A DNA stretch of 63,999 nt, the filler included, from Basidiobolus ranarum (Eukaryota), in assembly GCA_040143965.1 (NCBI GenBank). It is 7 parts of 7 records of this genome, joined end to end, with 100 filler letters (N's around TTAATTAATTAA, not from the genome) between each part and the next. Parts side by side here need not be neighbours in the genome. Positions count along the whole stretch, not along the records: positions 45,953 to 55,013 come from JASJQH010007752.1; 6 more parts are not named here. One strand, written 5' to 3'. A model generated the notes under the pieces. It was given only the letters and a program-made list of their open reading frames with translations, did not search any database and had not been told where the DNA came from. Shown here piece by piece: positions 3,732-56,040 of this stretch. Numbering within the stretch: position 1 is the first letter of the stretch; every line of letters begins with the position of its first letter. The translations under genes were made by a program, and so were the position numbers.

Positions 3732-4643
3732 TTTATTGGAATATTGTTGTTACAATAGACTCTTTGATCCTTTATTTAGCTCATTCTTCTGATTAATTAC
3801 GTGTACGTGAATCATCTTCAAGCTATAATGAGTATGTTAATAAATTAGACATTATTGAGAAGTCAGTGAAAGAGAGATAAGAGTGCTCTAATGTCTATTA
3901 CTGGTCCCCTAACCCTAAGAACCTCATTGAATACTGTCGAAGCAGGAAGTACCATGCAAGAACAGACTTAACTTTGCAGTACTAGGGTTTAGAGCAGTAC
4001 ATATAGGTCACTTTTCCAAACCCGAACCAAGCGAAAGAGTGGTAAAATAGAGCTTACTCAGTCTCTACCATGTGGTAGTGGCGAGACTGACAAATAGACA
4101 AAAAAATGCCGCTCTGAAATTCATTGAACCTGTAAATATTCCAGCTTGGTATACATCTCAGTTGGATCATTAGGATATCACGAAAATCTCGACAAAGAAA
4201 CCAAATAAAAGCAATCTTGAGACGAAGATACCATTCAGCAAACTTTGAATACTGAACGAAAGACTGTCGATGCAGCGAGCAAAGAAGCATTCGCAAATGC
4301 CTGGGTACATCAACATGCACATAACATAGTTACTTCCAAAGTATATTTAAAACGCATCAAGGGAGTATAAATATTAGGAATAAAGAATAACAGATATTGG
4401 GTGTCTAACTTTTGCTGCAATACGTGTAATGATATATTCATCAAAATGGTAGTAAACAGATGTATGTCTAAAAACAAAAAAGCCGCAAGAAACACAAAGA
4501 CAGCGAGTACTCGATGTCGTTTACGTGCACTCATAAATTATATAATACATTCGGAAGTTTAAGAAATCTTTCGATATCATACAAGGTGTCAATCACTCCA
4601 TCTTCTCGACAAAATCAACGACCAACAGTGTAATGGAAAATTT

Positions 4644-9105: not shown

Positions 9106-9205
9106 NNNNNNNNNNNNNNNNNNNNNNNNNNNNNNNNNNNNNNNNNNNNTTAATTAATTAANNNNNNNNNNNNNNNNNNNNNNNNNNNNNNNNNNNNNNN
9201 NNNNN
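9106..9205. other. Artificial contig spacer N44-TTAATTAATTAA-N44 (also at 18301-18400, 27491-27590, 36675-36774, 45853-45952, 55014-55113)
   Basis: Six identical 100-nt spacers containing a palindrome with stops in all six frames. The intervening segment lengths decrease monotonically. Confidence 0.97.
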
Positions 9206-18298: not shown

Positions 18299-18451
18299 TC
18301 NNNNNNNNNNNNNNNNNNNNNNNNNNNNNNNNNNNNNNNNNNNNTTAATTAATTAANNNNNNNNNNNNNNNNNNNNNNNNNNNNNNNNNNNNNNNNNNNN
18401 CAAGAGTTACTCGATATCAAGGCATTAATCAATGATTTGGTTGGAAATTAG

Positions 18452-27490: not shown

Positions 27491-28102
27491 NNNNNNNNNN
27501 NNNNNNNNNNNNNNNNNNNNNNNNNNNNNNNNNNTTAATTAATTAANNNNNNNNNNNNNNNNNNNNNNNNNNNNNNNNNNNNNNNNNNNNCAAAGGATTC
27601 AGCAGTCGGCATAACTTACAAGGCTTCCAGTCCCATACTATACTCCTTATGACAGCTACTCAAAATAATCACGATTGCATTACTTTACTGCGGATTTAAT
27701 TGCTCAACTGCTTCTCAGCAAGTACCTAAGTGAAGGGTATATCCTTGGTAAGCAGTTCAAATAATACCATCAATAGTTAGGCCAGAAATAGACCTTGAAA
27801 CTCGGCCCACTGGTCTAAAAGACATTGGTAAACGGGTGAAGAATAGACTTGGTTATATCGAATTGAATAAAGAGTGTAACATCTAACAAATATGAGTTTT
27901 ATTTTCCCGGGCGAAATATAAAAAAGGTATGCTCATAAAAAATGGATTGACTATGATACAGTAATGTAAACAAATAAATTCAGATGGCAATGATCGCAGT
28001 GGTAATTCGGAAAATTCCACGAAAATGAGAGATCGACATGAAAAAGTAACAATGACTATCCTAGGATGTAGAAGCGAGTTTCGATGATAAATTCTGGATG
28101 CC

Positions 28103-34619: not shown

Positions 34620-37499
34620 AGGACAGATTCCCAAGATCTCCATACAATATTATATTCGATTTTTATTGCCTAATTTGGTTTTCCATTAGCCTCACTTTAA
34701 GTTCGACGCGTTTCCACTTTTAGTATTTTGTTTTATTATACATTTTCGAAGAATTGTAGACCAAAACATGTTACCACCTCTCTTTTCAATCAATTCCAAC
34801 GTTTAGTTCTCTTCCACTAAGGAACAAACGGCTTCAATGTACAGTCTACACAATATACGTTGCTTTAAACTCTCTTTGTCTTGATATTCTTCAAATGAAA
34901 ATATCACCCTTTCCTAGTTATCCCTCAATGTCTCTATACACAGTAACCAATCTGGTTTTCAAATATCAACTTTCGACTTTTTTTGATATTTATGTCTTGA
35001 GACTACAAAACTAGAGTCTTTGATGTTCTCTATTCTCCCGAGAGTCTTGATATGAATGATATATTCTACTTCTTTGGTTGAATAAAATTACTTCCTCATG
35101 TTTTTCGTTAATGTGATTGGACTTAGAAGTACACTCAAAAGAGTTAACTATCCCCCCCTCAGTAATTATGTTTTCATTAAAAAATTTCCAAAGGTCAACA
35201 ATATTACAATGATGAAGGGGTATCGTGATTCACTCTTCCGGATCATAGTGTGTGGTCAAAGATGCACTCCTCACAAAAGAAATGACACGGATTCTATATA
35301 GTGCTTTCTAACTTGGAATTATTATATTTTATTTCTGTATCTTTGTTATTTTAAAATTCTTAAACGTTAGTTCCACTTTAATCCCCCTTCTTATCATAAG
35401 TGGATTCAACGGTACTAGGATAATGTATTTTAGCCCTGTCAACTTTCTCCATCCGTCTATACAATATTTATGTGTTCATCAAGAGGACTGAACCTTGCAG
35501 AAGGATACAGAGGTTCTACTGAATATACGACGTCTCAGTGAAATTTCCGAGAAAGAAGAGCTCTTCGGAAACCAGGGGTTGTGTTTGGCAGGAAAAGAAT
35601 ATTCGACCAGAGTTTAAATTCAATATAGTTTCAAGTGAACTCGGCAACAACCATGATGTTTAAGGAGACCGCTCAGGTTCAGAGGAAATGATATGATATT
35701 CATCTAGCATTATTTTAACACACATCGGGATAAATACACTTAATGACGATCTGATGTCACTATTATTGGATGAATATTCGTCAAAATTAGGCTAACCCCT
35801 CAGTACCTTCTATTGGAAAACCACATTCAAACACGAACTGAAATATTTAAAGTTTGTTACAAATCTTATTGTGAAGGTTACCTTCCAAGAGAAAGTCTTG
35901 GCAAGCTCGGCAATTCGTATCTAGCTAATTGGTGATTTACACAACTGACAATATGACGTCACCATCTGGCCGATGACGTGATGAAATAGATAGTCTTTGT
36001 CCACGTGAGACGAGAGGTGGAAGTGTTCGAAGGCTTAAATTTTAGGTTTGTATGTTGGTGATCCTAATACTGAGACAAACTGGTTCGTAATCAATTAGTT
36101 TGAATACACTTGTGGACAATCATGGACTTGGATGGACTTGACAATGAACGCGTATGCGACTAAATTAGACGCAACTACTCGGGACCTATGGCAATAAGAA
36201 ACGTAGTGGCCACTCCTCTCCTTGAGATATACATGCGAAAGTTGATTGGCACGGTCCTGGGCATGGCCATGGCCTGACAGTAGAAACCACAGTTTCCTGG
36301 TAAGGACGACTGGAACGTCTCACTGCTTCCATAAATGTACAATCGCCATCGATCCACATCGGCATTCCTATCTTTCAGGCCATTCCTAAAGCAGTTATAC
36401 GTTAGCCATCCCTCCTTTTTCGTAAGTAATTAATTTGCTAGATAATGTGACTTGACACTCAAACTGGTCCCACACAATTCTGAGTTAAGGTGACACCGCT
36501 TCCAAATACTGTCCGTGACATTAGCCAAGCCATTCAATTCTAGAATAGTGGCACAGGTTTGTCATGAATGAAGGAATCCATTGCGCAAACAATTTGGACT
36601 CATCTAATCACCCAACAATGCCAATAACGTGATATATACTGCGCAACATGTTCGAAAGCGGGCTGATAAGCTTCNNNNNNNNNNNNNNNNNNNNNNNNNN
36701 NNNNNNNNNNNNNNNNNNTTAATTAATTAANNNNNNNNNNNNNNNNNNNNNNNNNNNNNNNNNNNNNNNNNNNNCGGATACTCAATATATGCCAAAATAA
36801 GAACCATCATAGATACCCGATTATCATTCAGCATACCTCCACTTCAACTGTTTGTACTCTAGCTACAACGAAAATGGTTACCGTTTTTGACTTAAATAGC
36901 ATGTGCACACTCAGCTATGGAGCCATAGATTAATAATACATATTGATGCAATAAATCAATTTGAAATGTACTACAGACTCAACAATATTTGGCCACTAGC
37001 AAGCAAGCATCGGTGGGATTTTGGATAATCCCGCTCCAAGTGATGTAAACTTGTATTTCCAGGACAATTCATTTACCAACTGAATTAGCACAGAATAGGC
37101 CTCAATTTATCATCGGGTGGACTTACGTGTTGGTTGTAACATGTGTGCTTAGGAAGCCTTTGCTACAGGATTCTCTCGAGTTAAAGATGTGTAGTTGTTC
37201 TAGTGATTTAGAAGGACAGCTATAATGAATAGCATGTACTGTCAAGACTGTGCAGTATATTTGTGAGAGTGAAAAGGCCTGTGGTGAATGATTTGTTTGG
37301 CATTGGCTACTTGCTGATTACAATTGGAAAGTACACTCAGTGAATAGAGTTACGAACTTGCTCATACATTAGTGGTCTAAATTGATTTACTTTTTTGATG
37401 TTGACTTTCAAATTGTGATACCTTGATAATTACTAGGCTAAGTGCATTACGACATCTTTATATGACCTAATTGCTCCAAAGACTTTTCAGCTGCTATAC

Positions 37500-45243: not shown

Positions 45244-46223
45244 TGGAGATACAAAGTGAAGCTACCGCTGAGAAATGACTGCAAATAGGAGATGGCAAGC
45301 TGAAACGGTAAAACGAAGCAAACCCAAGACTCTTACAAATATCACCCGTCGTTTCCAAGAGAGCAGGCTGTCTAAATAAATAACAATATGCCAGTTTTGG
45401 TCCCAATCAATCGGAGAATCTATTGGGGGAGAATAGGGCACTCATTAAACTCATTACCTCTCTCAGATCACCCCACCTCTTTTTCGGAAGTTATATCTAC
45501 ATAATAGATATAACTTATGGCTGATGCCAAAATCTTGGAAATTATCTCGAATCGTTTCAATACCCATAGAATTCCCGAGGGAAAAAGTGAAAAAAGAAGA
45601 GTAATGGGCGCTTCCATTGGTAAAGAATGAGGAATCAAGAAGACAGCACCTATCTAGAAACTCAGTTGCGGGAAACTGGATCTAGTAGTGTTGTACACAA
45701 GTCAATAACTGCCCCAAAAAGTCAATTAGGAGTAACAGTTGCCCCAATATACCATGCGTTAAGTTCAGAGTTCAATGCTGTACCATTGTACCGCCGTCTC
45801 ATCGATAAGTTCTACCGTGCCTACAGAAGCTCTAATTGGTCGAGTTTAATTTNNNNNNNNNNNNNNNNNNNNNNNNNNNNNNNNNNNNNNNNNNNNTTAA
45901 TTAATTAANNNNNNNNNNNNNNNNNNNNNNNNNNNNNNNNNNNNNNNNNNNNGGATGAGGCCAAGCAAAACGCGAAAAAAAAGTATGCACCACAAGGTCA
46001 AGACTACCTAGTAACCCACCAGGGGACTTTTGAACTGAACATGTTAGGGCTTGGAAAGCGTTACCCAAATAGACCAAGTGGTAAACATCTTGGCAAAATA
46101 ATGAACAAGATGGTGAAATTCATTTACATAAAAAAAATTTAAAATATATATCGATGGAGTACCCTCATACTTGCTATAAACCAAAATATCTTCAGACTGT
46201 CTGGGACTACCTAGAATAGCAGC

Positions 46224-48567
46224 TCAAGGTCGCTCCTTTTCCGCCTCCATGTTCTCATCATAATATTGATCCATCAACAATCCTGCTTGATGCTTCAAGT
46301 CTGCATCATCGACTAATGAGACTGATTCCAAAGCATCAATGCCGTTAAACTGGTCTAAGAGAGCTTTCCCATTAGGTACCTCCCTTAGAATATGATCTAC
46401 ATAATGTAAACCAAGGCGGATTGTTTCTGGATCCTGGGTTCGAACAAAGTCCAAGAACCCTAAATTGGTATCATTTAAATCATTTGTTTCTGATAAGGTA
46501 TACAAAGTGGAGGTGGAAATAAGTTACGTGGTAAGAGATCTTCATGCGGAAGTAAATCCAAATATTTTTGTCCATGAGAGGCAATATTCACGATGCTATA
46601 AGCGGCCTAACATGACATATAAGTATGGTGGATGAGGTAAGAGTGTCTATAGTAATTTCACTTACTTCTTTCCTGATATCAAAGTTGCTGTGTGTTGCTA
46701 TTTCTAACAAATATGGTAAGTACCCATTCTCTAACACGGCGTTTACATGCTCAATTGTTCTACAGACAAGAAATGAGTAAGATACGACTCTTGAAACGAT
46801 ACAGATATTCATTTAGATAGATCTAACCCAGCAGTAATATTGGATAAGACCCAGAGACTTTCTTTTTTTATGGCCCTAGAAGAAGTTCAAGTCAGTTACC
46901 ATGTTGAGGGTAACTCCATAATGCAAGTCTCAAACCTGAGTTCCGATTTGATGTAAGGGATTAGGTTTTGAAGAAATGCTGGTTGTTGCATCAAAGTATC
47001 TGCATGCCAGTCAGTACAACTGGCAATATTGCCAACCGTTCGAATAAGAGGAATCGCTAGAGATCCTTTATCAGCCATTATGGGCATATGTTTGACCTAG
47101 AGAAGATTTTGGATTAGCTGTTGTTTGAGATATACTCCAATATGCAAGGATTGTGTTTGATTACCAAGAGTGGAGCAAGTCCGTCTTTAAGGAGAGCTGA
47201 GCTGTAAAGCTCATTTCCACATGTCAAGTAGGTCAAGACCCATGTAACTTCAGATATTTCCTCGGGGACCTAATAAAAGTGTGGCAAGTGAGTTAATTTA
47301 AGTTATCTCATAACTTTCAATGTAAACCAGATCACCACATACATTATCTCGGTCAAGAAGCTGTAAAAGAAGTTTTGAGATTCCAGCGCCGAAAAATTCC
47401 TCGAAACGAGTATGGTTACGTGCTAAACTTGAAAGGGCAAAACAGACTGTCTGTACTAAACTGGGATTCTATCATATGTATGTTAAAATGGCTCACTTTC
47501 ATTAATATAGTGAATTATACGAACATCCGATTGTAACAACTTGACAAGAGGAGTTATGGCACCGTTGGCCGTTAGCCTCTCGCGAAATTCGGCGCCTTCA
47601 ACAGCAATATTACCAAGAGCCCAGGCAGCTTGCTCTTGCAGTTGCTTTTAATGCAAGAGAAGAGAATGTAAATATTCAATTCTTTAGTTACAAGTAAATA
47701 ATAGCGTACCGAATTAGGCTCTTCCAGAGATGATATCAAATATGGAACCGTAGAAAGAACCTTAGAACAAAGTTCAGGAGTTCCAGCTGCGATGTCTAAT
47801 GTTACAGGGGTGATCAGGCTATAGTTCAATCTCACGTGTGAAAAAGAAAATGCGGATATTTACTAGTGATACACCAGGTGGCTTGGAATCTCTCGTCAAA
47901 GTCAGTGCTTGTCAAAAATTTCTAATGTTATACAATAATTAGAACTACTTGTTGACATCAATTGCAGCGCGAAAAGATGTCAAGCTTAATGTAAAATTTT
48001 AACAACCGATAGCAAGTCAACAGCACCACCTTCCAAAACGAAATCGTTCAGGGCCTCGGAGGGGTCTACTAAAAAGTTACTAAGCTCCTTCAGTGCTTCA
48101 ACGCGAACCCCGCGGACAGAGCTCTGTAGAGATAGTCAGTATGATAGAATTCCACCAAGTTTAAAATGATGTAAGTAAATAATACATTGAGTTGTTCTCG
48201 AAGCTTTTCTAACTCTTTCGTAGTTAAATCGTACTCGGCCTCTATAACCCAGTTAAATTTGATTGGTATATATTTTATAAAAAGGTGTTTCAGCAGTGAA
48301 AAATAGCGTACCACCACGATCACTCAAAGGTGTATCTTCACGATGACGGAAGCGTTTTCCCATAACCAATTGTTCACGACGTAACTTTCTCGATTGTGAA
48401 TCTTGAGCTATTCTCTTAGCCTTGGCTGCGGCAGAAGATCTGGGGATTGTGGTGGCTTTATAATATTCCTTGTGTCTCGAAGGTGAGGTACTTTTCCCAT
48501 TGTCGGTACTAGTCCTTCTTTCGATACTAGCTCGTCTATTCTGCAAGCTGTTTCTTCTATTCTCCAT
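46224..48567 (-). CDS. Atypical importin-alpha-like ARM-repeat protein (TMCO6/IMPA9-like), many exons
   Basis: IBB-like SRKLRREQLVMGKRFR. ARM repeats QATWCITNIAAG, EQAAWALGNIA, PLIRTVGNIAS, ESLWVLSNITA and FDIRKEA; ends GIDALES. Confidence 0.85.
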
Positions 48568-49479
48568 GTTTATCTTGTGACCAGGGGGTTGGCTTAATTG
48601 TTACTTGAAGTGAGATAAATTTCAAGGTAAAATCACGATTTATATGGCTCACTTTGAATGCCACACTTTAAGGTCAAGGAAAGAGTCACGACTCTCATTT
48701 GATTGGATGTTTGTAAGTCCCATCTCGCCCATAACAGGCATCCACTTGGTATAATTTCTGAATCCCGTTGTATATTTAGGTCCATGAACACAATAGATTA
48801 TAAATATGCTCCCTAAAATTTGGAATTCGTGGAACAAATCATATCAGTATAAACTGAATTGTTGCTCAGATGATCTGTACTCGTGCCGTCTCAATAACGA
48901 TATCCCATGGCCTAGAATGACGCAAGTCTATTAGATGATCCGTGGATTAAATAATACGATTCAAAAGTAGGTGAATTGGAGACCAATGCATTCCAAAGTT
49001 ATACGTGTGTAATTTACCCAAAATTCAAGAAACGTCCGTTTTGAACCAGGTGTTTACAGTCTAGACTCTTAGGAGAATCACTGCTTACATCTGGTTACAT
49101 TGATCTAGGTAAAGATAGCATTCCGCCTTTCTAGATTTGACACACATTTGGTGTGTTATAGATCAACAACACTAGTCTAATTAAGTTGGCTGGTTTTGGA
49201 TCAAATAATGATAAAATTGTTCTTAATTATTAAATATGTTGAAGGGGTGATATATCTGGAGTACTTCGGACTAGTATTTTGAAGAGATCTTATTTACAGA
49301 ATGGTAAAAATGAACAAGAGTGGCATCCGATGGTTTGTAGTAGAATAGGTGGATACGTATTATTAAACTCGGATGGACAAAGGCGAACGGACGGAGGGAT
49401 TGAAGGATGGTGAACTTGTATTAGTGGGCCAATGTAGAGATTATTGATTTCGATAGCCAAGAGACTTTTTCTAGAAGGA

Positions 49480-52400
49480 TCATGCTTCCTCGTTGTTGGT
49501 TTTCCGTCTGGTGGTAGGTGTTTCCTGAACAACGCGTTTTGTAAAAGCTTCTGTCTTCTTGAATGCTTGTATTTCCTGCTCAACTTGGTCTCTCATCTCC
49601 ATCGCCATGTTGTAAACTTCCGAGTCAGTTTTATTGTACATCAGCGCGTTCTGAAACATCAATAGAATATCCCGATGAAATTCGTCTGTAGTTGTGATAA
49701 CGCCTTCTCGAATCCGCTGTTTGATGGATTTCAAGTCCATTGGCCGTTTTATAACATCGTAATACCCCGGTGCGGCTTGCTCTTTGATCGGATGCATGAA
49801 AACAGCACCAAACCTATGATTCGCAATTTCTCGCCATATCATGGAAATTAACTTCTTCCAACTCTGGTGCTTTTTATCCTCTGTTGTAGGTGAGGAAGCC
49901 TCTTTTTTTTCGAAGTAAGCTCCACTGTCGGAAGTTTCGGCATCTGATACCTCATAGCCATCATTCTCATCCTCCGACTCGTGGTTTTTTGGCTTTCCTA
50001 TACTATACTTACGAGAATGTCGCACAGGTGTGCTCTTCGTTAAATCCTCATCTTCAAGTTTAACTTTTTTCTCAACAGACCCATCTTGAGACTCTTCAAG
50101 AGTTGGTTTTGGATCCGAGTCTCGAGGTCGTTTACGACTAACCGACGATGATGGTGAAGGTGATTTGATATCTTTAGGCCTATCTACAGTAGTTAAACTG
50201 ACATCTTCAGAAGCCTCCTGTTTTATTTCGTTGACTTCCAAAATAGTCTTTTCTTGAAAGACTTCTGTTTTTACTTCAACTGGTACTATTTCCGGATTGG
50301 CAACTGAATCTTCACATGACGAATTATTCTCTTTCGTCTGAGTAGCAGGATCAGATTCTACAGTACTCGAGAAAGATTCTTCTGCGGGAGATTGCTCTTT
50401 CACATGTTCTTCTGATACATCTTCAGGGTCAACTTCGCTATCCTCGTTAGGTATCCCGGGCGTCTCTTCATTTACAACTATGTCAGACAGTTGATCGTCA
50501 ATCATTTCTGAAGTGGCCTCCACATCCAATTTCTCATCTATAGGCGATGGCTCAACAGGTTGACCATGTGCTTCTGATTCTATCATAGGAACTGCCTCTT
50601 CATCTTCATTTCGTAAAGTTTCCTGTTCGGTACGAGTTTCTGTAATTTCTGGTGGAGAACTGTAACTTTCTTTAGTATAATCTATAACCGAGACAGCCTC
50701 ATCTGTTGCTCCAGTTTGGTCTGTTTCTATCGGAGAAACTGGCTTACTCTGAAGTTTAGCTTCCAACTGGTCCGATTTTTCGAAAGTATTGGTATCTTCA
50801 TTTTCAGAGGGTTCATGTAGAGTTGTTTCTACGTTTGCATCAAATGAATTTCCCTTGTCCTCCTGCTTTTTATGCTCAACTGTACTCGTCTCCTCATCTA
50901 CGTTCGCATTTTCCGGATGTGATTCATCTTTTGCACCTTCATATAGAGTAGGTATATCTTCGAGTAGACTAGATTCCATGTCCGGTAATGTTTCTTCTGC
51001 TAAGGTCGGTGTGGAGATATCTGTTGGCTTGGCGATCTTTTCAAAAGAATGATTGTGAATTGGAGTGATGGAATCGGTACCCTCCAATTGAGATGCATCA
51101 AGCTCTGGTTGGGATGAAGGATCGTCAATAATTTCCTTTGTCTCAGGACTAAGGTCGCTTTGTTCTTGAATAGCCTCTGTCAGACTGGAATAATGAGGAG
51201 ATGTATCGAAGTTGGATGCTTGTTCCACTTGATTAGTCTCAGGTACATTAGATCTTTCTAGACTATTGACTTCGACACTTGAATCCAGGATAGAAGGCGC
51301 TTCAATTTCCGCATGGTATATAGGAGAATTGATTGTTCGAGTTTCTACGTTGGCCAATTCCTTGTTTGCATCCAGAGTATGGAGAGTTCCCTGGTCCAGG
51401 CCAACTATATCCATACTATCCTTATTACCTTCACTATTTAACACGACGTCTTGATCGGTGGTGGTTTCTTCAATTGGGTTGTCATCCTCACTTTTGGTGA
51501 GGAACTCCTGTTCAGTCGTTCTCTCTATATGTGCTTTTGCACTATCCACGATGTTATCAGCATTTGTGCCAACTTCGGCAGATTCAAGAGAAGCATGATC
51601 GTTCGTAGGTTCCGTATTGGGAGTAGATTCTATTTCATTGGGGCTTTGAGTGTCTGGGAGTCCAGTAGTATCTGGAACAGTTTCCTGAAGGGATTTTTTA
51701 GGGGATTTTACGCTCACAGCTTCTGAATAATCTTCAGATACGATTGATACGGTATCAGCCGGCAAATTGCTGTCCGGCGGTGACTGATCAACTAGGGCTT
51801 TAGAATCCTCTGGAGATTTGAATTCTGTTTGATCTACTACTGATGATACATTAGGTAACTCATCGAATTTCGGTTTTTTGGCCATGCTGTGAACGTCATG
51901 AAGGTCTTCTCTAGAGCGTTTGGATGATAAAGCAAAAGCAAGAACGCCCTCACTCGCAGATTCTTCTGGTAGATTCTCTACACTAGAGTGACTTACCAAA
52001 CTATCATCTGGCATTATATGGGTGTGGGGAGATTTCTTAGGAGATATATGGATGGAACTATCATTCAATGTAATATCTTGATCCAGTGAGGATGGCAAAG
52101 CAATGATACTATCTTCATCACTTGCTAATTTGATTTCTTCGGATGTTGATCCTACCATTTCCTTAGTGGCAAGAGTTTGAACAAAGTCTGAACTATCCTT
52201 CTGGTCTGAAGGTAATGTGGGCACAATCCTTTCGTCTACCTGCTCTTCCATCGAATCCTTTTTGGGAGAACCTATCTTAGCTATCTGTTCTTCCGACTCG
52301 ACAGCTTGAGTAGATTGTGGTTCCTCTTTGATAGGAATAGTCTCTTTTGGCCCGTCGAAAGGAATCAAAGTATCACCCAAAGCTTCGTTTAGTGCCTCCA

Positions 52401-54146
52401 CCTCCGCTGGCTCATCAACTTGAACCACTGATTTCTCAGGCTCTTCAATAAAAGTGTCTTGACGCCCCTCTACTACCTCATCCATGACCTCTTTTGGAGT
52501 TTGTTCATCAGAAGCATGACTCGCATCTTGAGTAATTTCTAATGATGTTTGATCTGGGGTATTGGTAGTTGCTAGCTTGGTTGTATGGATACCCTCCCCT
52601 TCTGATTCGTCCAAAGGCGTAATATCCTCTGATATCATTAGGTCTTCTTTCAAAATTGCATCACTCGGCTTATCAAGTTCATCTTCACCTATTTGATCCC
52701 GTTTCGATGTTTCCAACACTTCATTTGATACGAGAGCATTATGTGAGTGAGAATCCGATGTCTCCGCCAAATTGACATCAGAATGTATGGGATTGGAAAC
52801 TCCAGTAGCAGCCACATCTTGCGGAGGATTGGTTCCTAGCTCGGTTAAATCTTGATCTTTCATGATCGGATTATTTTTTTCCACACTTGCCAATTTCTCT
52901 GAGTCTAGTTCGGGGAGCAGGGTCAACTCATTATCAACATTATCTTCAAGATTTGATAGTGGATTTTTCTTCAATTCGATAGAGTCTGTGGCCTCTTTAA
53001 TGTCACCTTCAGTTGGCTTATCCATCTCTGATAGTGGACTCTTCGATACATATGCAGACTCAGCAGTTGCTACATCTACGGATATTTGGTGAGGTAACAT
53101 AGTATCGTTATTTACGTCTGTAATTGGGAGTAAACTTTTAGGAGTATCAGGTGCCGATACTACGTCTTCTTGCAACACTACTTCATCGGATTTGATGACT
53201 TCTTTCAGGTCATTAGGTTTTGATTCTAACTCGCTTTTTGGTTCTGAAATTTGTTTGATATCGGGAGATGCTTCCATCATATTGGTGGATAAAGTTGACT
53301 CATCCAACTGGAGAGTTTGCTTTACCGTAGTAGACCCAAGTTGGTTTTCAAGGGGAGGTGTAGATATTTCCGAAGTAGCTACTAGTTTGGTAGGATTATT
53401 CGTTTGATCAATTTGTCCCGATTCTGAACGATGTTCGTCGAGATTTCTCTTAAATCCTTTATACTTGTCTAACAGCTGCTTATCCCATTTTCCGGTTCGA
53501 ATATCTTCTACTTCCCTCTTCAAATGACTAAAAATTAAATTAATATGAGTTCCATATCTAAGTTAATGCTTAGACAAAGCATAAAAACGCTTACTGATAT
53601 TTTTCAACATCCACTTTCAAAGCAATCTTGAGCTCTTTGATTCGTTCCATATATAATTCCCTGGCAAGTTTCAGCACAGGTGGCATTTCTATATTCGCGT
53701 CTAGAATGCGTTGAGTAAAGTATACAAAAATATTATTTAGTGAGGTAATTACGTACCTGAATTATTGAGGATGAGCTGCTTTCTACTATGTTTAAGAAAT
53801 TAGCCTTCAAGTACGATCGTTATCTGAGAGCAGTAAGATAGGTTACCTTTTATCCTCCAAATCTTTTATAAGTGAAGCGTATTGAAGAGCGCAGCTCTAG
53901 TAGAATATAGAATAGGTTTGAGGTAAACAACATGAACAATAATAAGGTGACATAAAGTATTCAATAAAAAACAGAAATCCGCGTTACGTTTGGGGTAAAA
54001 AAATCGACAGATCGGGAAGCTGAACGGTGAAGATTTAGTGTTCTAGCGATGGCTAACCAGTTACCATCCCCATATTTGTACACTGATTGGGCCAGCAATA
54101 GTTTTTCTAAAACGGTCCAATTTGAATTTATTTTTGAACCGTCCAT
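49480..54146 (-). CDS. BRD8/Bdc1-like bromodomain protein (NuA4/TIP60-type subunit) with a very long acidic linker
   Basis: N-terminal SANT-like WTVLEKLLLAQSVYKYGDGNWLAIARTL and coiled coil ending EDIRTGKWD. C-terminal bromodomain IANHRFGAVFMHPI...PGYYDVIKRPMDL...LMFQNALMYN. Confidence 0.88.
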
Positions 54147-54432
54147 GTACGCATTATCCACCTTGCGAAAGATGTACAAGTACTATTTTGTGACCAAAAT
54201 AAATAAGGTAGACTTGCACTACTAAGAACTGAACAGTTTCTTCTCAAAAATGTATCTAGAGTACTACGATCCTTTGAAAACAACTTTGTAAATTATTTTC
54301 TTGATCCATGAAAACTTTGCTAAAATTTGGTGACGTATTGGAGGGAGGATTCAATTTTGGAAATTTAGTAATAACCCCTGCTAACTCAATATAGATTATA
54401 TTTTGTTACATATTGTATAAAATATTTCAGAA

Positions 54433-54523
54433 ACTAAATGTCGCAGTTAAAAGAGATGATTGGATGAGGGTTCATAGTATTAAACAATCCTATTGTGGAA
54501 CAGCTTGAATAGGCGGACTTAGT
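54433..54523 (-). ncRNA. Candidate omegaRNA-like structured 3' end of the Fanzor-like element
   Basis: 91 nt closed by an ACTAA-GTC-c-GC / GC-GAC-at-TTAGT stem, with nested GATTG/CAATC and ATGA-accc-TCAT hairpins. It lies downstream of the fragment on the same strand. Confidence 0.45.
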
Positions 54524-54622
54524 ATTAAATATTCTAGAATCGTGATGATGGTGATTCATGCTTTTTTTCTTTACAAATGTATCATCGCATTGATGAGGTT
54601 TTGGTTTTTTTCGTTGCGTGAA

Positions 54623-55006
54623 TCATTCATATGAGGCTATTTGATGTGCATACTTTAAGTTAATTGGCTCATATAAACTATGTTGAAAGTATAAATCTCG
54701 ATGGTTGTTGATAAGCTCTTAGTAGGTTCTTGGCTTTGACGATGCTGTTTGTTTATTTGGTTTGTAATTCTGGAGAAGCGACAAGAAGACTTCTCTGTAA
54801 AAATCAACGTTGGAAAAACTTTCCAGGGCAAAGGCAGGGTCATTTTCCAATTCTTGAATAAACATGTACTTCAAAAAGGTGAACGTGTGCGTTACAAGGA
54901 TATGGACATTAGCCACGAGTGATATGAGAAGCGGAATGTACCGTGGCTTCCACCCAATACCCGCCATAGAGCTGTTGACTGCTATAATCTTTAATGGTGG
55001 TTCCAT
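54623..55006 (-). pseudogene. N-terminal fragment of a Fanzor1-like (TnpB-derived) transposon protein, disrupted
   Basis: AGIGWKPRYIPLLISLVANVHILVTHTFTFLKYMFIQEL...DFYREVFLSLL...TY*ELINNHRDLYFQHSLYEPINLKYAHQIASYE*. This resembles the N-terminal region of the multicopy Mucoralean Fanzor1-type family as I recall it. Stops at 54719-54721 and 54623-54625; no RuvC motifs remain. Confidence 0.68.
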
Positions 55007-55113
55007 AAAGAGANNNNNNNNNNNNNNNNNNNNNNNNNNNNNNNNNNNNNNNNNNNNTTAATTAATTAANNNNNNNNNNNNNNNNNNNNNNNNNNNNNNN
55101 NNNNNNNNNNNNN

Positions 55114-55614: not shown

Positions 55615-56040
55615 TTAATACCTGTTAAATAGGAGTGCTACGATTATGATCAGAATGGCTATGTTTGAGGGCTGACTATTCAGAGAGGTAGTATTCGGAG
55701 TGGGTGTTACTGGATGTGTTCCACTCACCACTGGGCTTGCTTGAGCGGTGGTAGTTGGTGAAATGGAACTGACTGAGGCAGAAGCCACTGAGGAAATAGA
55801 GCTCACTTTAGAGCTGACTTTGGAATTAATTGACGATACAGCTGAAGAGAGCTCTGAAGAAATGGATTGTAAAGTAGACGTGACTTCTATTGAAGTTGTG
55901 GGTTGTCCATCTGGCGATGAGTTGATCGAAGTAGGCTCTCCTCCTATAGATGTAGGGGGGACTGTGGTAGTTATAGTAATACCTCTGGCAAGTATGCAAG
56001 TAATGAAGATCAATATTCCGATGTATTTGCACAATCTCAT
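55615..56040 (-). CDS. Small secreted Ser/Thr-rich surface protein with a hydrophobic (GPI-like) tail, intronless
   Basis: Signal peptide MRLCKYIGILIFITCILA, S/T-rich body and tail NIAILIIIVALLF. Confidence 0.8.
   Translation of the reverse strand: MRLCKYIGILIFITCILARGITITTTVPPTSIGGEPTSINSSPDGQPTTSIEVTSTLQSISSELSSAVSSINSKVSSKVSSISSVASASVSSISPTTTAQASPVVSGTHPVTPTPNTTSLNSQPSNIAILIIIVALLFNRY

What the first reader, a model, noticed from the sequence alone, without database searches (positions are those of the whole stretch)
54433..55013. Internally deleted Fanzor1-like element (eukaryotic RNA-guided TnpB relative) upstream of the BRD8-like gene
Seen: a minus-strand frame starting MEPPLKIIAVNSSMAGIGWKPRY stays protein-like through an in-frame TAA (54719) to ...YAHQIASYE* (54623). 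It then switches abruptly to a basic tail (FTQRKKPKP...KKKSM) that runs in the same frame to a stop inside a structured 91-nt segment. Knowledge: Fanzors are transposon-encoded eukaryotic TnpB descendants guided by an omegaRNA from the element's 3' end. Inference: the N-terminal motifs (GIGW, THTF.FLKY.F.QEL, F..EVFLSL, YA.QIA.YE) match my recollection of the Mucoralean Fanzor1-type family. This would be a non-autonomous copy that lost the rest of REC and all of RuvC but kept its 3' end. It hints at a possibly uncharacterised Fanzor family with intact copies elsewhere in this genome.
Basis: partly seen in the sequence, partly recalled or inferred. Interest (0 to 1): 0.85.

Follow-up and report, generated by a model that had tools for sequence, protein, structure and literature searches.

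The report
Dead fragment of a Fanzor1 gene
This is the broken front end, about one sixth, of a Fanzor1 gene (an RNA-guided DNA cutter carried by transposons in Mucor-like fungi), left beside a bromodomain gene at the edge of an assembly contig; it is an ordinary relic of a known family.

Summary
The observed frame is real and it is Fanzor1. Minus-strand 55006-54626 (127 codons, in-frame TAA at 54719-54721) matches Parasitella parasitica Fanzor1 in the PDB (E 1.9e-23). It gives 126 HMMER hits, the best a Rhizopus microsporus protein (68% identity, E 1.2e-49). Its model superposes on PpFz1 (TM 0.78).

A metagenome locus, L001, carries a nearly complete relative (76% DNA identity) with DPGRRD, DEFRTS, a zinc finger, NRD and 135-bp inverted ends. 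MEPPLK is the family's true start.

The window joins seven contigs with N/TTAATTAATTAA linkers, and this contig ends 7 nt upstream of the ATG. Homology stops sharply at about 54624.

The downstream tail shows no likeness to L001's 3' end (8 of 100 shuffles score as well). It has no significant RNA fold (z above -1 in all seven folds) and no Rfam match above threshold. No RuvC or zinc-finger sequence occurs anywhere in the window.

Verdict: a nonsense-mutated, 3'-truncated relic of a known Mucoralean Fanzor1 transposon. The "kept 3' end / omegaRNA" and "uncharacterised family" claims are unsupported. Interest is low.

The parts
54626..55006 (-). Fanzor1 ORF fragment, codons 1-127 (ATG 55006-55004 to GAA 54628-54626). 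It covers the N-terminal stretch plus the first helices of the helical (REC-like) part.
   Evidence: PDB phmmer hit to PpFz1, E 1.9e-23. 126 HMMER hits, best E 1.2e-49. 76% DNA identity to L001 2215-2601. AlphaFold model pLDDT 89, TM 0.78 to 9cf1_P. dN/dS 0.08 against L001.
54719..54721 (-). In-frame TAA nonsense codon (codon 96).
   Evidence: The codon aligns with K, R or Q in relatives and with AAA in L001.
54623..54625 (-). TGA stop at the homology breakpoint. Relatives continue here with V/M-x-K-I-x-T-A-Y.
   Evidence: In the DNA alignment, identity ends after TATGAA. Protein relatives continue past this point.
55007..55013 (-). Last 7 nt of the contig, just upstream of the ATG. They are still homologous to the 5' leader of the L001 gene.
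   Evidence: TCTCTTT against TTTCTTT.
55014..55113 (.). Artificial contig linker (44 N, TTAATTAATTAA, 44 N). It is not genomic sequence.
   Evidence: Six such linkers lie about 9.2 kb apart.
54147..54622 (-). Tail, or intergenic stretch, between the breakpoint and the ATG of the bromodomain gene. It is A-rich, which explains the 'basic tail' when translated. It has no detectable Fanzor, TIR or RNA-family signal and is most simply the promoter and 5' leader of the neighbouring gene (inference).
   Evidence: tblastn with the 126 relatives found only one match reaching below 54600: P0118 (E 2.7e-10, 54865-54584), which overruns the breakpoint by about 13 codons and which I read as alignment overhang. 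Local alignment to the L001 3' region scored 29 against 23.6 +/- 2.9 for shuffles, with 8 of 100 shuffles as high. Folds are not significant. The only Rfam match is below threshold, E 0.59. It holds a 30-nt imperfect direct repeat, 54460-54489 / 54505-54534.
49480..54146 (-). Neighbouring host gene on the same strand: a first exon with a Myb/SANT-like domain (ATG about 54146), then a long exon ending in a bromodomain (BRD8-like).
   Evidence: Pfam Bromodomain, E 1.4e-23. Myb_DNA-binding, E 1.2e-4, below the curated cut-off. ORFs are listed.

Best explanation
A DNA transposon carrying a Fanzor1 gene once lay upstream of the BRD8-like gene, in the same orientation. This kind is known in Mucorales: a TIR-bounded element whose only gene is the RNA-guided TnpB-like nuclease. 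What remains is the first 127 codons of that gene. A deletion or rearrangement with its breakpoint at about 54624 removed everything from codon 128 onward: the rest of REC, WED, RuvC and the zinc-finger/TNB domain. It most probably also removed the omegaRNA region and the 3' terminal repeat. A single A-to-T change made codon 96 a TAA.

The fragment cannot encode a nuclease and there is no sign that it encodes a guide RNA, so it is inert. The contig stops 7 nt upstream of the ATG. The likely reason is that the assembler could not resolve repeated or variable sequence there (inference), so the 5' leader and 5' terminal repeat are unassembled rather than shown to be absent.

Shown here: homology, breakpoint, nonsense codon, absence of the C-terminal domains from the window, and the contig edge. 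Inferred: the order of events, loss of the 3' end, and the reason for the contig break.
For: Family:
- PpFz1 is the only PDB sequence hit: E 1.9e-23, query residues 5-129 on chain residues 512-635, running through the TAA.
- HMMER gives 126 hits at E <= 1e-3 and 54 at E <= 1e-10. The named closest relatives are Mucorales: Rhizopus microsporus, Gilbertella, Helicostylum and R. arrhizus.
- Of the 13 hits of at least 550 aa, 12 carry a DPGxRD-type RuvC-I motif and 5 carry the [TS][TS]xxC4...RD C-terminus.
- The fold search ranks 9cf1_P and 9cf0_P first (TM 0.78 and 0.77), then SpuFz.

Reference element:
- The L001 ORFs hit PpFz1 at E 5.6e-136 and SpuFz1 at E 2.6e-41.
- They contain DPGRRD, GNWS, DEFRTS, CPSC, CKNQQC and NRD.
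- The gene lies between 135-nt inverted repeats that are 89% complementary.

True start: the M of MEPPLK aligns with the start M of P0001, P0004, P0006 and P0019.

Decay: TAA stands where relatives have K/R/Q. Homology ends at about 54624. tblastn with all 126 relatives finds no other significant match in the 64-kb window.

Past coding constraint: differences from L001 number 24, 13 and 54 at codon positions 1, 2 and 3, and dN/dS is 0.08.

No 3' end.
Against: - The test for a retained 3' end rests on one reference element that is only 76% identical in coding DNA, with saturated synonymous sites (dS 1.7). A diverged terminal repeat or omegaRNA could escape it.
- The 5' repeat of this copy, which would allow a direct self-comparison, lies beyond the contig end.
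- The junction at 54624 is seen in a single draft contig and could not be checked against reads.
- The copy number in the genome is unknown.
Confidence: 0.78

Rival explanations
1. One reading: an internally deleted, non-autonomous Fanzor1 element. It would have lost codons 128 to the end but kept the element's 3' end (omegaRNA scaffold plus right terminal repeat) in 54430-54622, and so could be mobilised or loaded in trans by intact copies.
For: The switch from Fanzor to unrelated sequence is abrupt and lies inside the ORF, as an internal deletion would give. The negative similarity test has low power at this divergence. A weak 7-bp closing stem bounds 54433-54523.
Against: The tail shows no similarity to the L001 3' UTR or TIR in either orientation: score 29, with 8 of 100 shuffles as high, and the best match is an A-rich 17-mer outside the TIR. 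No fold beats shuffles; z runs from -0.77 to +1.25 over seven stretches. The only Rfam match is below threshold. No second copy of the tail occurs in the window.
Confidence: 0.12
2. Assembly artefact: the last 390 nt of the contig are a repeat read-through wrongly joined to the unique BRD8-like upstream region. The truncation at 54624 would then not exist in the genome.
For: The fragment lies at the very end of a short draft contig that is joined to the others by linkers. Transposon copies often cause such breaks and misjoins (general knowledge).
Against: A misjoin would more often occur at an element end than inside the ORF. The copy also carries its own private nonsense codon, which fits a real decayed locus. 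No reads were available to test this.
Confidence: 0.06
3. The N-terminal piece is retained for a function of its own, for example a short REC-like protein or a regulatory upstream ORF of the BRD8-like gene.
For: dN/dS against L001 is 0.08. Several Mucorales genomes annotate short (115-216 aa) N-terminal Fanzor1-like proteins.
Against: The TAA at codon 96 cuts the frame inside a helix predicted with high confidence. The low dN/dS is explained by divergence between once-active lineages. Short annotated relatives are most simply partial gene calls or other decayed copies; 6 of the 10 clusters looked up have their longest contig at or below 5.9 kb.
Confidence: 0.04

Closest known systems
Parasitella parasitica Fanzor1 (PpFz1; PDB 9CF0-9CF3; PMC11423790)
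   Same: Same family and the same fungal order. Query residues 5-129 align to chain residues 512-635 at E 1.9e-23, with 42% identity in the structural alignment and TM 0.78.
   Different: PpFz1 is a complete, active nuclease with an omegaRNA that the paper gives as 75 nt (passages). It has a longer N-terminal extension; I estimate about 140 residues from the MBP-fusion numbering, and did not read this from the entry. It also has an FRI insertion that is missing from the closest full-length relative L001: chain 986-1092 is unmatched. The window copy holds only 127 codons and a stop.
Fanzor1 families of Mucorales in Bao & Jurka 2013 (ROr, MCi, PBl elements; PMC3627910)
   Same: Fanzor1 genes carried as the only gene of non-autonomous DNA transposons in Rhizopus, Mucor and Phycomyces, some with TIRs (passages read). 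L001 has this layout, with 135-bp inverted ends.
   Different: I could not compare with the Repbase sequences, so which named family is nearest is unknown. The superfamily of L001 is undecided: TA lies on both flanks, and I saw no clear 9-bp duplication. The paper's additional files were not seen.
Rhizopus microsporus hypothetical protein CEG74287.1 (P0001, 173 aa)
   Same: It is the closest named protein: 68% identity over residues 3-129, with the same MKPPLK start.
   Different: It continues for 46 residues past the window's breakpoint with the family's conserved VTKI..YL..FGNKLR stretch. It is unannotated as Fanzor.
Spizellomyces punctatus Fanzor1 (SpuFz1, PDB 8GKH) and bacterial TnpB
   Same: SpuFz1 shows the same fold in this region (TM 0.62, probability 0.96). 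L001 matches it at E 2.6e-41. Descent of Fanzor from TnpB is stated in the literature (PMC3627910).
   Different: Identity with SpuFz1 is only 17% in this region. The fragment itself has no sequence-level hit to SpuFz1 or to any Pfam model.

Membership tests
Fanzor1 (eukaryotic TnpB-like RNA-guided nuclease) | Sequence and fold homology of the N-terminal/REC-like region to experimentally characterised Fz1 | tested here: met
   PpFz1 at E 1.9e-23. TM 0.78 to 9cf1_P, with SpuFz next. 126 HMMER relatives.
Fanzor1 (eukaryotic TnpB-like RNA-guided nuclease) | RuvC catalytic motifs (D ... E ... RD) | tested here: not met
   They are absent from the window: tblastn with 126 relatives finds nothing beyond the N-terminal fragment. 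They are present in relatives: L001 has DPGRRD, DEFRTS and NRD, and 12 of 13 long hits have DPGxRD. The locus is therefore a remnant of a member, not a functional member.
Fanzor1 (eukaryotic TnpB-like RNA-guided nuclease) | C4 zinc finger / TNB domain after [TS][TS]xxC (motif given in the abstract of PMC3627910) | tested here: not met
   Absent from the window. Present in L001 (CPSC ... CKNQQC) and in 5 of 13 long hits. Pfam PF07282 matches below threshold in 3 of 10 long hits.
Fanzor1 (eukaryotic TnpB-like RNA-guided nuclease) | Intact open reading frame | tested here: not met
   TAA at codon 96, and TGA plus loss of homology after codon 127.
Fanzor1 (eukaryotic TnpB-like RNA-guided nuclease) | omegaRNA encoded at the element's 3' end | tested here: inconclusive
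   No fold is better than shuffles. No Rfam family above threshold. No similarity to the L001 3' region. There is no model of this family's omegaRNA and only one diverged reference, so absence is likely but not proven.
Internally deleted non-autonomous transposon copy | Both element termini (TIRs) present and flanked by a target-site duplication | tested here: inconclusive
   The 5' terminus lies beyond the contig end. The tail holds no match to the L001 TIR. No TSD can be defined.
Internally deleted non-autonomous transposon copy | Several copies sharing the same deletion junction | not testable with these tools
The window has no second copy.

The most novel reading that the evidence does not exclude
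The tail 54430-54622 could be the diverged 3' end of the element, with omegaRNA scaffold and right repeat. The locus would then be a miniature Fanzor1 derivative that still makes a guide RNA and can be served in trans by intact copies elsewhere in this fungus. Those copies would belong to a compact Mucoralean Fz1 lineage: the nearest full-length relative, L001, is roughly 700 aa, has no long N-terminal extension and has no FRI insertion. The low dN/dS (0.08) would then point to recent activity of that lineage.
Probability: 0.1. Interest if true: 0.4.

Novelty: new member of a known kind. Interest (0 to 1): 0.14.

Why it matters
It matters little in itself. It is a decayed copy of a transposon-borne nuclease gene whose family has been described in Mucorales since 2013 and solved structurally in 2024.

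It has some use as a marker. It shows that this fungus has hosted a Fanzor1 lineage that was under strong coding constraint until recently (dN/dS 0.08). A search of the full assembly for intact copies, which in the nearest relative are compact and lack the FRI insertion, is therefore worthwhile for anyone cataloguing Fanzor diversity.

It also shows that the window is a chain of separate contigs. Any feature that touches 9106-9205, 18301-18400, 27491-27590, 36675-36774, 45853-45952 or 55014-55113 must be read as cut by an assembly edge.

Tried and rejected
- Pfam on the fragment (97, 129 and 192 aa read-throughs): 0 families at E <= 10. Pfam has no model for this N-terminal region.
- Word-based search for longer homologues: none among 118 candidates. 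The full HMMER scan later showed this was a sensitivity failure.
- ESM Atlas: no usable hit.
- Whole-genome search: no genome is held. Copy number, read support and intact copies were therefore not tested.
- Earlier findings by place and by sequence: nothing.
- IMG/VR viral contigs: 105 pattern matches, none confirmed.
Repeated with 6 close sequences, it gave 198 pattern matches and 1 confirmed locus, L001.
- I first thought L001 resembled the Crypton-associated MCi-2A element, because a tyrosine-recombinase-like ORF lies upstream (Pfam Phage_integrase E 6.4e-4, below cut-off). I rejected this: the 135-nt inverted repeats (1721-1855 / 4446-4580) enclose the Fanzor gene only, and the recombinase ORF (1-906) lies outside them.
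- An intron after YAHQIASYE was considered and rejected. There is no GT at the junction, L001 has no intron there, and no continuation exists downstream in any frame.
- ATAATT (the MCi-2 target pattern) occurs once in the tail near 54291-54296, by my reading. About one is expected by chance in AT-rich DNA (my estimate), so I dropped it.
- I did not compare the tail with the published PpFz1 omegaRNA.

Full report
**1. What the sequence shows**

- The ATG is at 55006-55004.
- The in-frame TAA is at 54721-54719, which is codon 96.
- The TGA is at 54625-54623.

It is 44 N, TTAATTAATTAA and 44 N. The same linker occurs six times in the window, with spacings of 9195, 9190, 9184, 9178 and 9161 bases. 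The window is therefore seven draft contigs of slowly falling length joined by a six-frame-stop linker. The finding lies at the very end of contig 45953-55013, and only 7 nt precede the ATG.

**2. Is it Fanzor1?**

Yes.
- Pfam gave nothing, a word-indexed search for longer proteins gave nothing and the ESM Atlas gave nothing.
- phmmer against all PDB chains gave one hit, the MBP fusion of Parasitella parasitica Fanzor 1 (9cf0_P). Its E-value is 1.9e-23, and query residues 5-129 align to chain residues 512-635 straight through the TAA.
- A full HMMER scan of 1.84 billion representatives gave 126 hits at E <= 1e-3, of which 54 are at E <= 1e-10 and 4 at E <= 1e-30.
- The best hit, P0001 (68% identity), is a Rhizopus microsporus hypothetical protein. 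Other named relatives are from Gilbertella persicaria, Helicostylum pulchrum and Rhizopus arrhizus. The window is thus from a Mucoralean fungus or a close relative (inference).
- Of the 13 hits of at least 550 aa, 12 carry a DPGxRD-type motif and 5 carry the [TS][TS]xxC4...RD end. Pfam's Cas12f1-like TNB model matches 3 of 10 long hits below its cut-off.
- An AlphaFold model of the 129 residues, built on a 51-row alignment, has pLDDT 89.2 and pTM 0.78 and is almost all helical. It superposes best on PpFz (9cf1_P, TM 0.78, rmsd 1.8 A over 108 columns) and next on Spizellomyces Fanzor (TM 0.62).

**3. A reference element**

One metagenome contig, L001 (4815 bp), encodes a relative that is 73% identical in protein and 76% identical in DNA over window 55011-54626 = L001 2215-2601.
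- Its gene starts MEPPLKIITVKSS.
- It has a one-base insertion in a T-run near 2430. This is either a frameshift or a sequencing error.
- It runs on through DPGRRD, GNWS, DEFRTS and CPSC.
- It has a GT...AG intron at 4038-4096 by my reading.
- It ends with CKNQQC ... WNRD ... and a stop at 4361.
- Its long ORF matches PpFz1 at E 5.6e-136 and SpuFz1 at E 2.6e-41. About 105 residues of PpFz1 (chain 986-1092) have no counterpart, and this is where I place the FRI insertion described in PMC11423790.
- The gene lies between inverted repeats of 135 nt, 1721-1855 and 4446-4580, which are 89% complementary.

L001 is therefore a roughly 2.9-kb TIR-bounded element whose only gene is Fanzor1. Bao and Jurka described this layout for Rhizopus, Mucor and Phycomyces (PMC3627910, passages).

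**4. What is left in the window**

- The TAA stands where relatives have K, R or Q and where L001 has AAA.
- DNA identity to L001 ends after TATGAA at about 54624. L001 goes on to encode MVKIVTAYLNG, while the window reads TGATTCACGCAACG.
- tblastn with all 126 relatives found no other significant match in the whole 64-kb window. The best match elsewhere has E 0.015. One hit, P0118, overruns the breakpoint to 54584, which I read as alignment overhang.
- Only codons 1-127 survive, about one sixth of a roughly 700-aa protein.
- Against L001 the differences fall 24, 13 and 54 on codon positions 1, 2 and 3. dN/dS is 0.08 and dS is 1.7. The sequence evolved as a working gene for nearly all of that divergence, and the damage is comparatively recent.

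**5. The tail**

The 'basic tail' is the translation of A-rich DNA.
- It has no likeness to L001 downstream of the breakpoint. The best local score is 29 against 23.6 +/- 2.9 for shuffles, with 8 of 100 shuffles as high. The match is an A-rich 17-mer outside the repeat. The reverse strand and the 5' part of L001 score below the shuffle mean.
- blastn of the L001 5' repeat-plus-leader and of its 3' UTR-plus-repeat against the window gave only chance-level matches.
- The 91-nt stretch 54433-54523 folds no better than shuffles (z -0.09). None of the seven folds made has z below -1.
- Rfam gives one match below threshold, on the other strand (E 0.59).

The tail ends 478 nt downstream at the ATG (about 54146) of the neighbouring gene. 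That gene has a Myb/SANT-like first exon and a bromodomain (E 1.4e-23). The simplest reading is that the tail is that gene's promoter and leader (inference).

There is a caveat. With synonymous sites saturated, a diverged terminal repeat or guide-RNA scaffold could escape a comparison with a single reference. This copy's own 5' repeat is off the contig.

**6. Explanation and rivals**

- Best explanation (0.78): a nonsense-mutated, 3'-truncated relic of a Fanzor1-bearing transposon. It is inert.
- Internal deletion with the 3' end kept (0.12): not supported but not excluded.
- Assembly chimera at 54624 (0.06): not testable here.
- A retained function for the N-terminal piece (0.04): the TAA argues against it.

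**7. Comparison with what is known, and novelty**

Fanzor1 families in Mucorales are in print: 4 in Rhizopus oryzae, 10 in Mucor circinelloides and 3 in Phycomyces (Table 1 passage of PMC3627910). A Mucoralean Fz1 has been solved with its omegaRNA (PMC11423790, passages).

I read passages of these two papers and of PMC10530073. For PMC10711439 I saw one passage. I saw no supplements, so family-level assignment against Repbase consensus sequences remains open.

The locus is a new but degenerate copy of a known kind. Interest is low.

Noticed in passing
window 9106-9205, 18301-18400, 27491-27590, 36675-36774, 45853-45952, 55014-55113: The window is not one stretch of genome. It is seven contigs of about 9.1 kb, in order of falling length, joined by 44 N + TTAATTAATTAA + 44 N linkers. 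Neighbourhood across these points means nothing.
   Followed up: yes
L001 1721-1855 and 4446-4580: 135-nt inverted repeats (89% complementary) enclose the Fanzor1 gene of the metagenome relative. TA lies directly outside or at the tip of both repeats, so a Tc1/Mariner-type TA duplication is possible. I saw no clear 9-bp duplication. The superfamily is undecided.
   Followed up: partly
L001 1-906 (+), with inverted repeats 908-1017 / 1192-1234: An ORF open at the contig start resembles a tyrosine recombinase (Pfam Phage_integrase E 6.4e-4, below cut-off). It is perhaps a Crypton- or DIRS-like element lying next to, but outside, the Fanzor1 element. Perfect 43-nt inverted repeats follow it.
   Followed up: partly
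L001 2356-4041 against PDB 9cf0_P: The closest full-length relative lacks about 105 residues that PpFz1 has between chain positions 986 and 1092. This is where I place the cyclophilin-binding FRI insertion, which the Cell 2024 paper says it found only in Parasitella and Rhizopus. This lineage also lacks PpFz1's long N-terminal extension.
   Followed up: partly
proteins P0001, P0003/P0128, P0007/P0129, P0131-P0144: Several Mucorales assemblies annotate short (115-227 aa) 'hypothetical proteins' that are only the N-terminal part of Fanzor1, some on long contigs of 210-580 kb. They are probably decayed copies or first-exon gene calls. I did not examine whether they share breakpoints.
   Followed up: no
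window 54460-54489 and 54505-54534: An imperfect 30-nt direct repeat (70% identity, 45 nt apart) with a shared TAGTATTAAA core, in the tail upstream of the BRD8-like gene. Its meaning is unknown; it may be a promoter element or chance.
   Followed up: no
window 55615-56040 (-), on the next contig: A 141-aa ORF with a hydrophobic N-terminus, a long Ser/Thr-rich middle and a hydrophobic C-terminus. It looks like a small secreted or GPI-anchored mucin-like wall protein.
   Followed up: no
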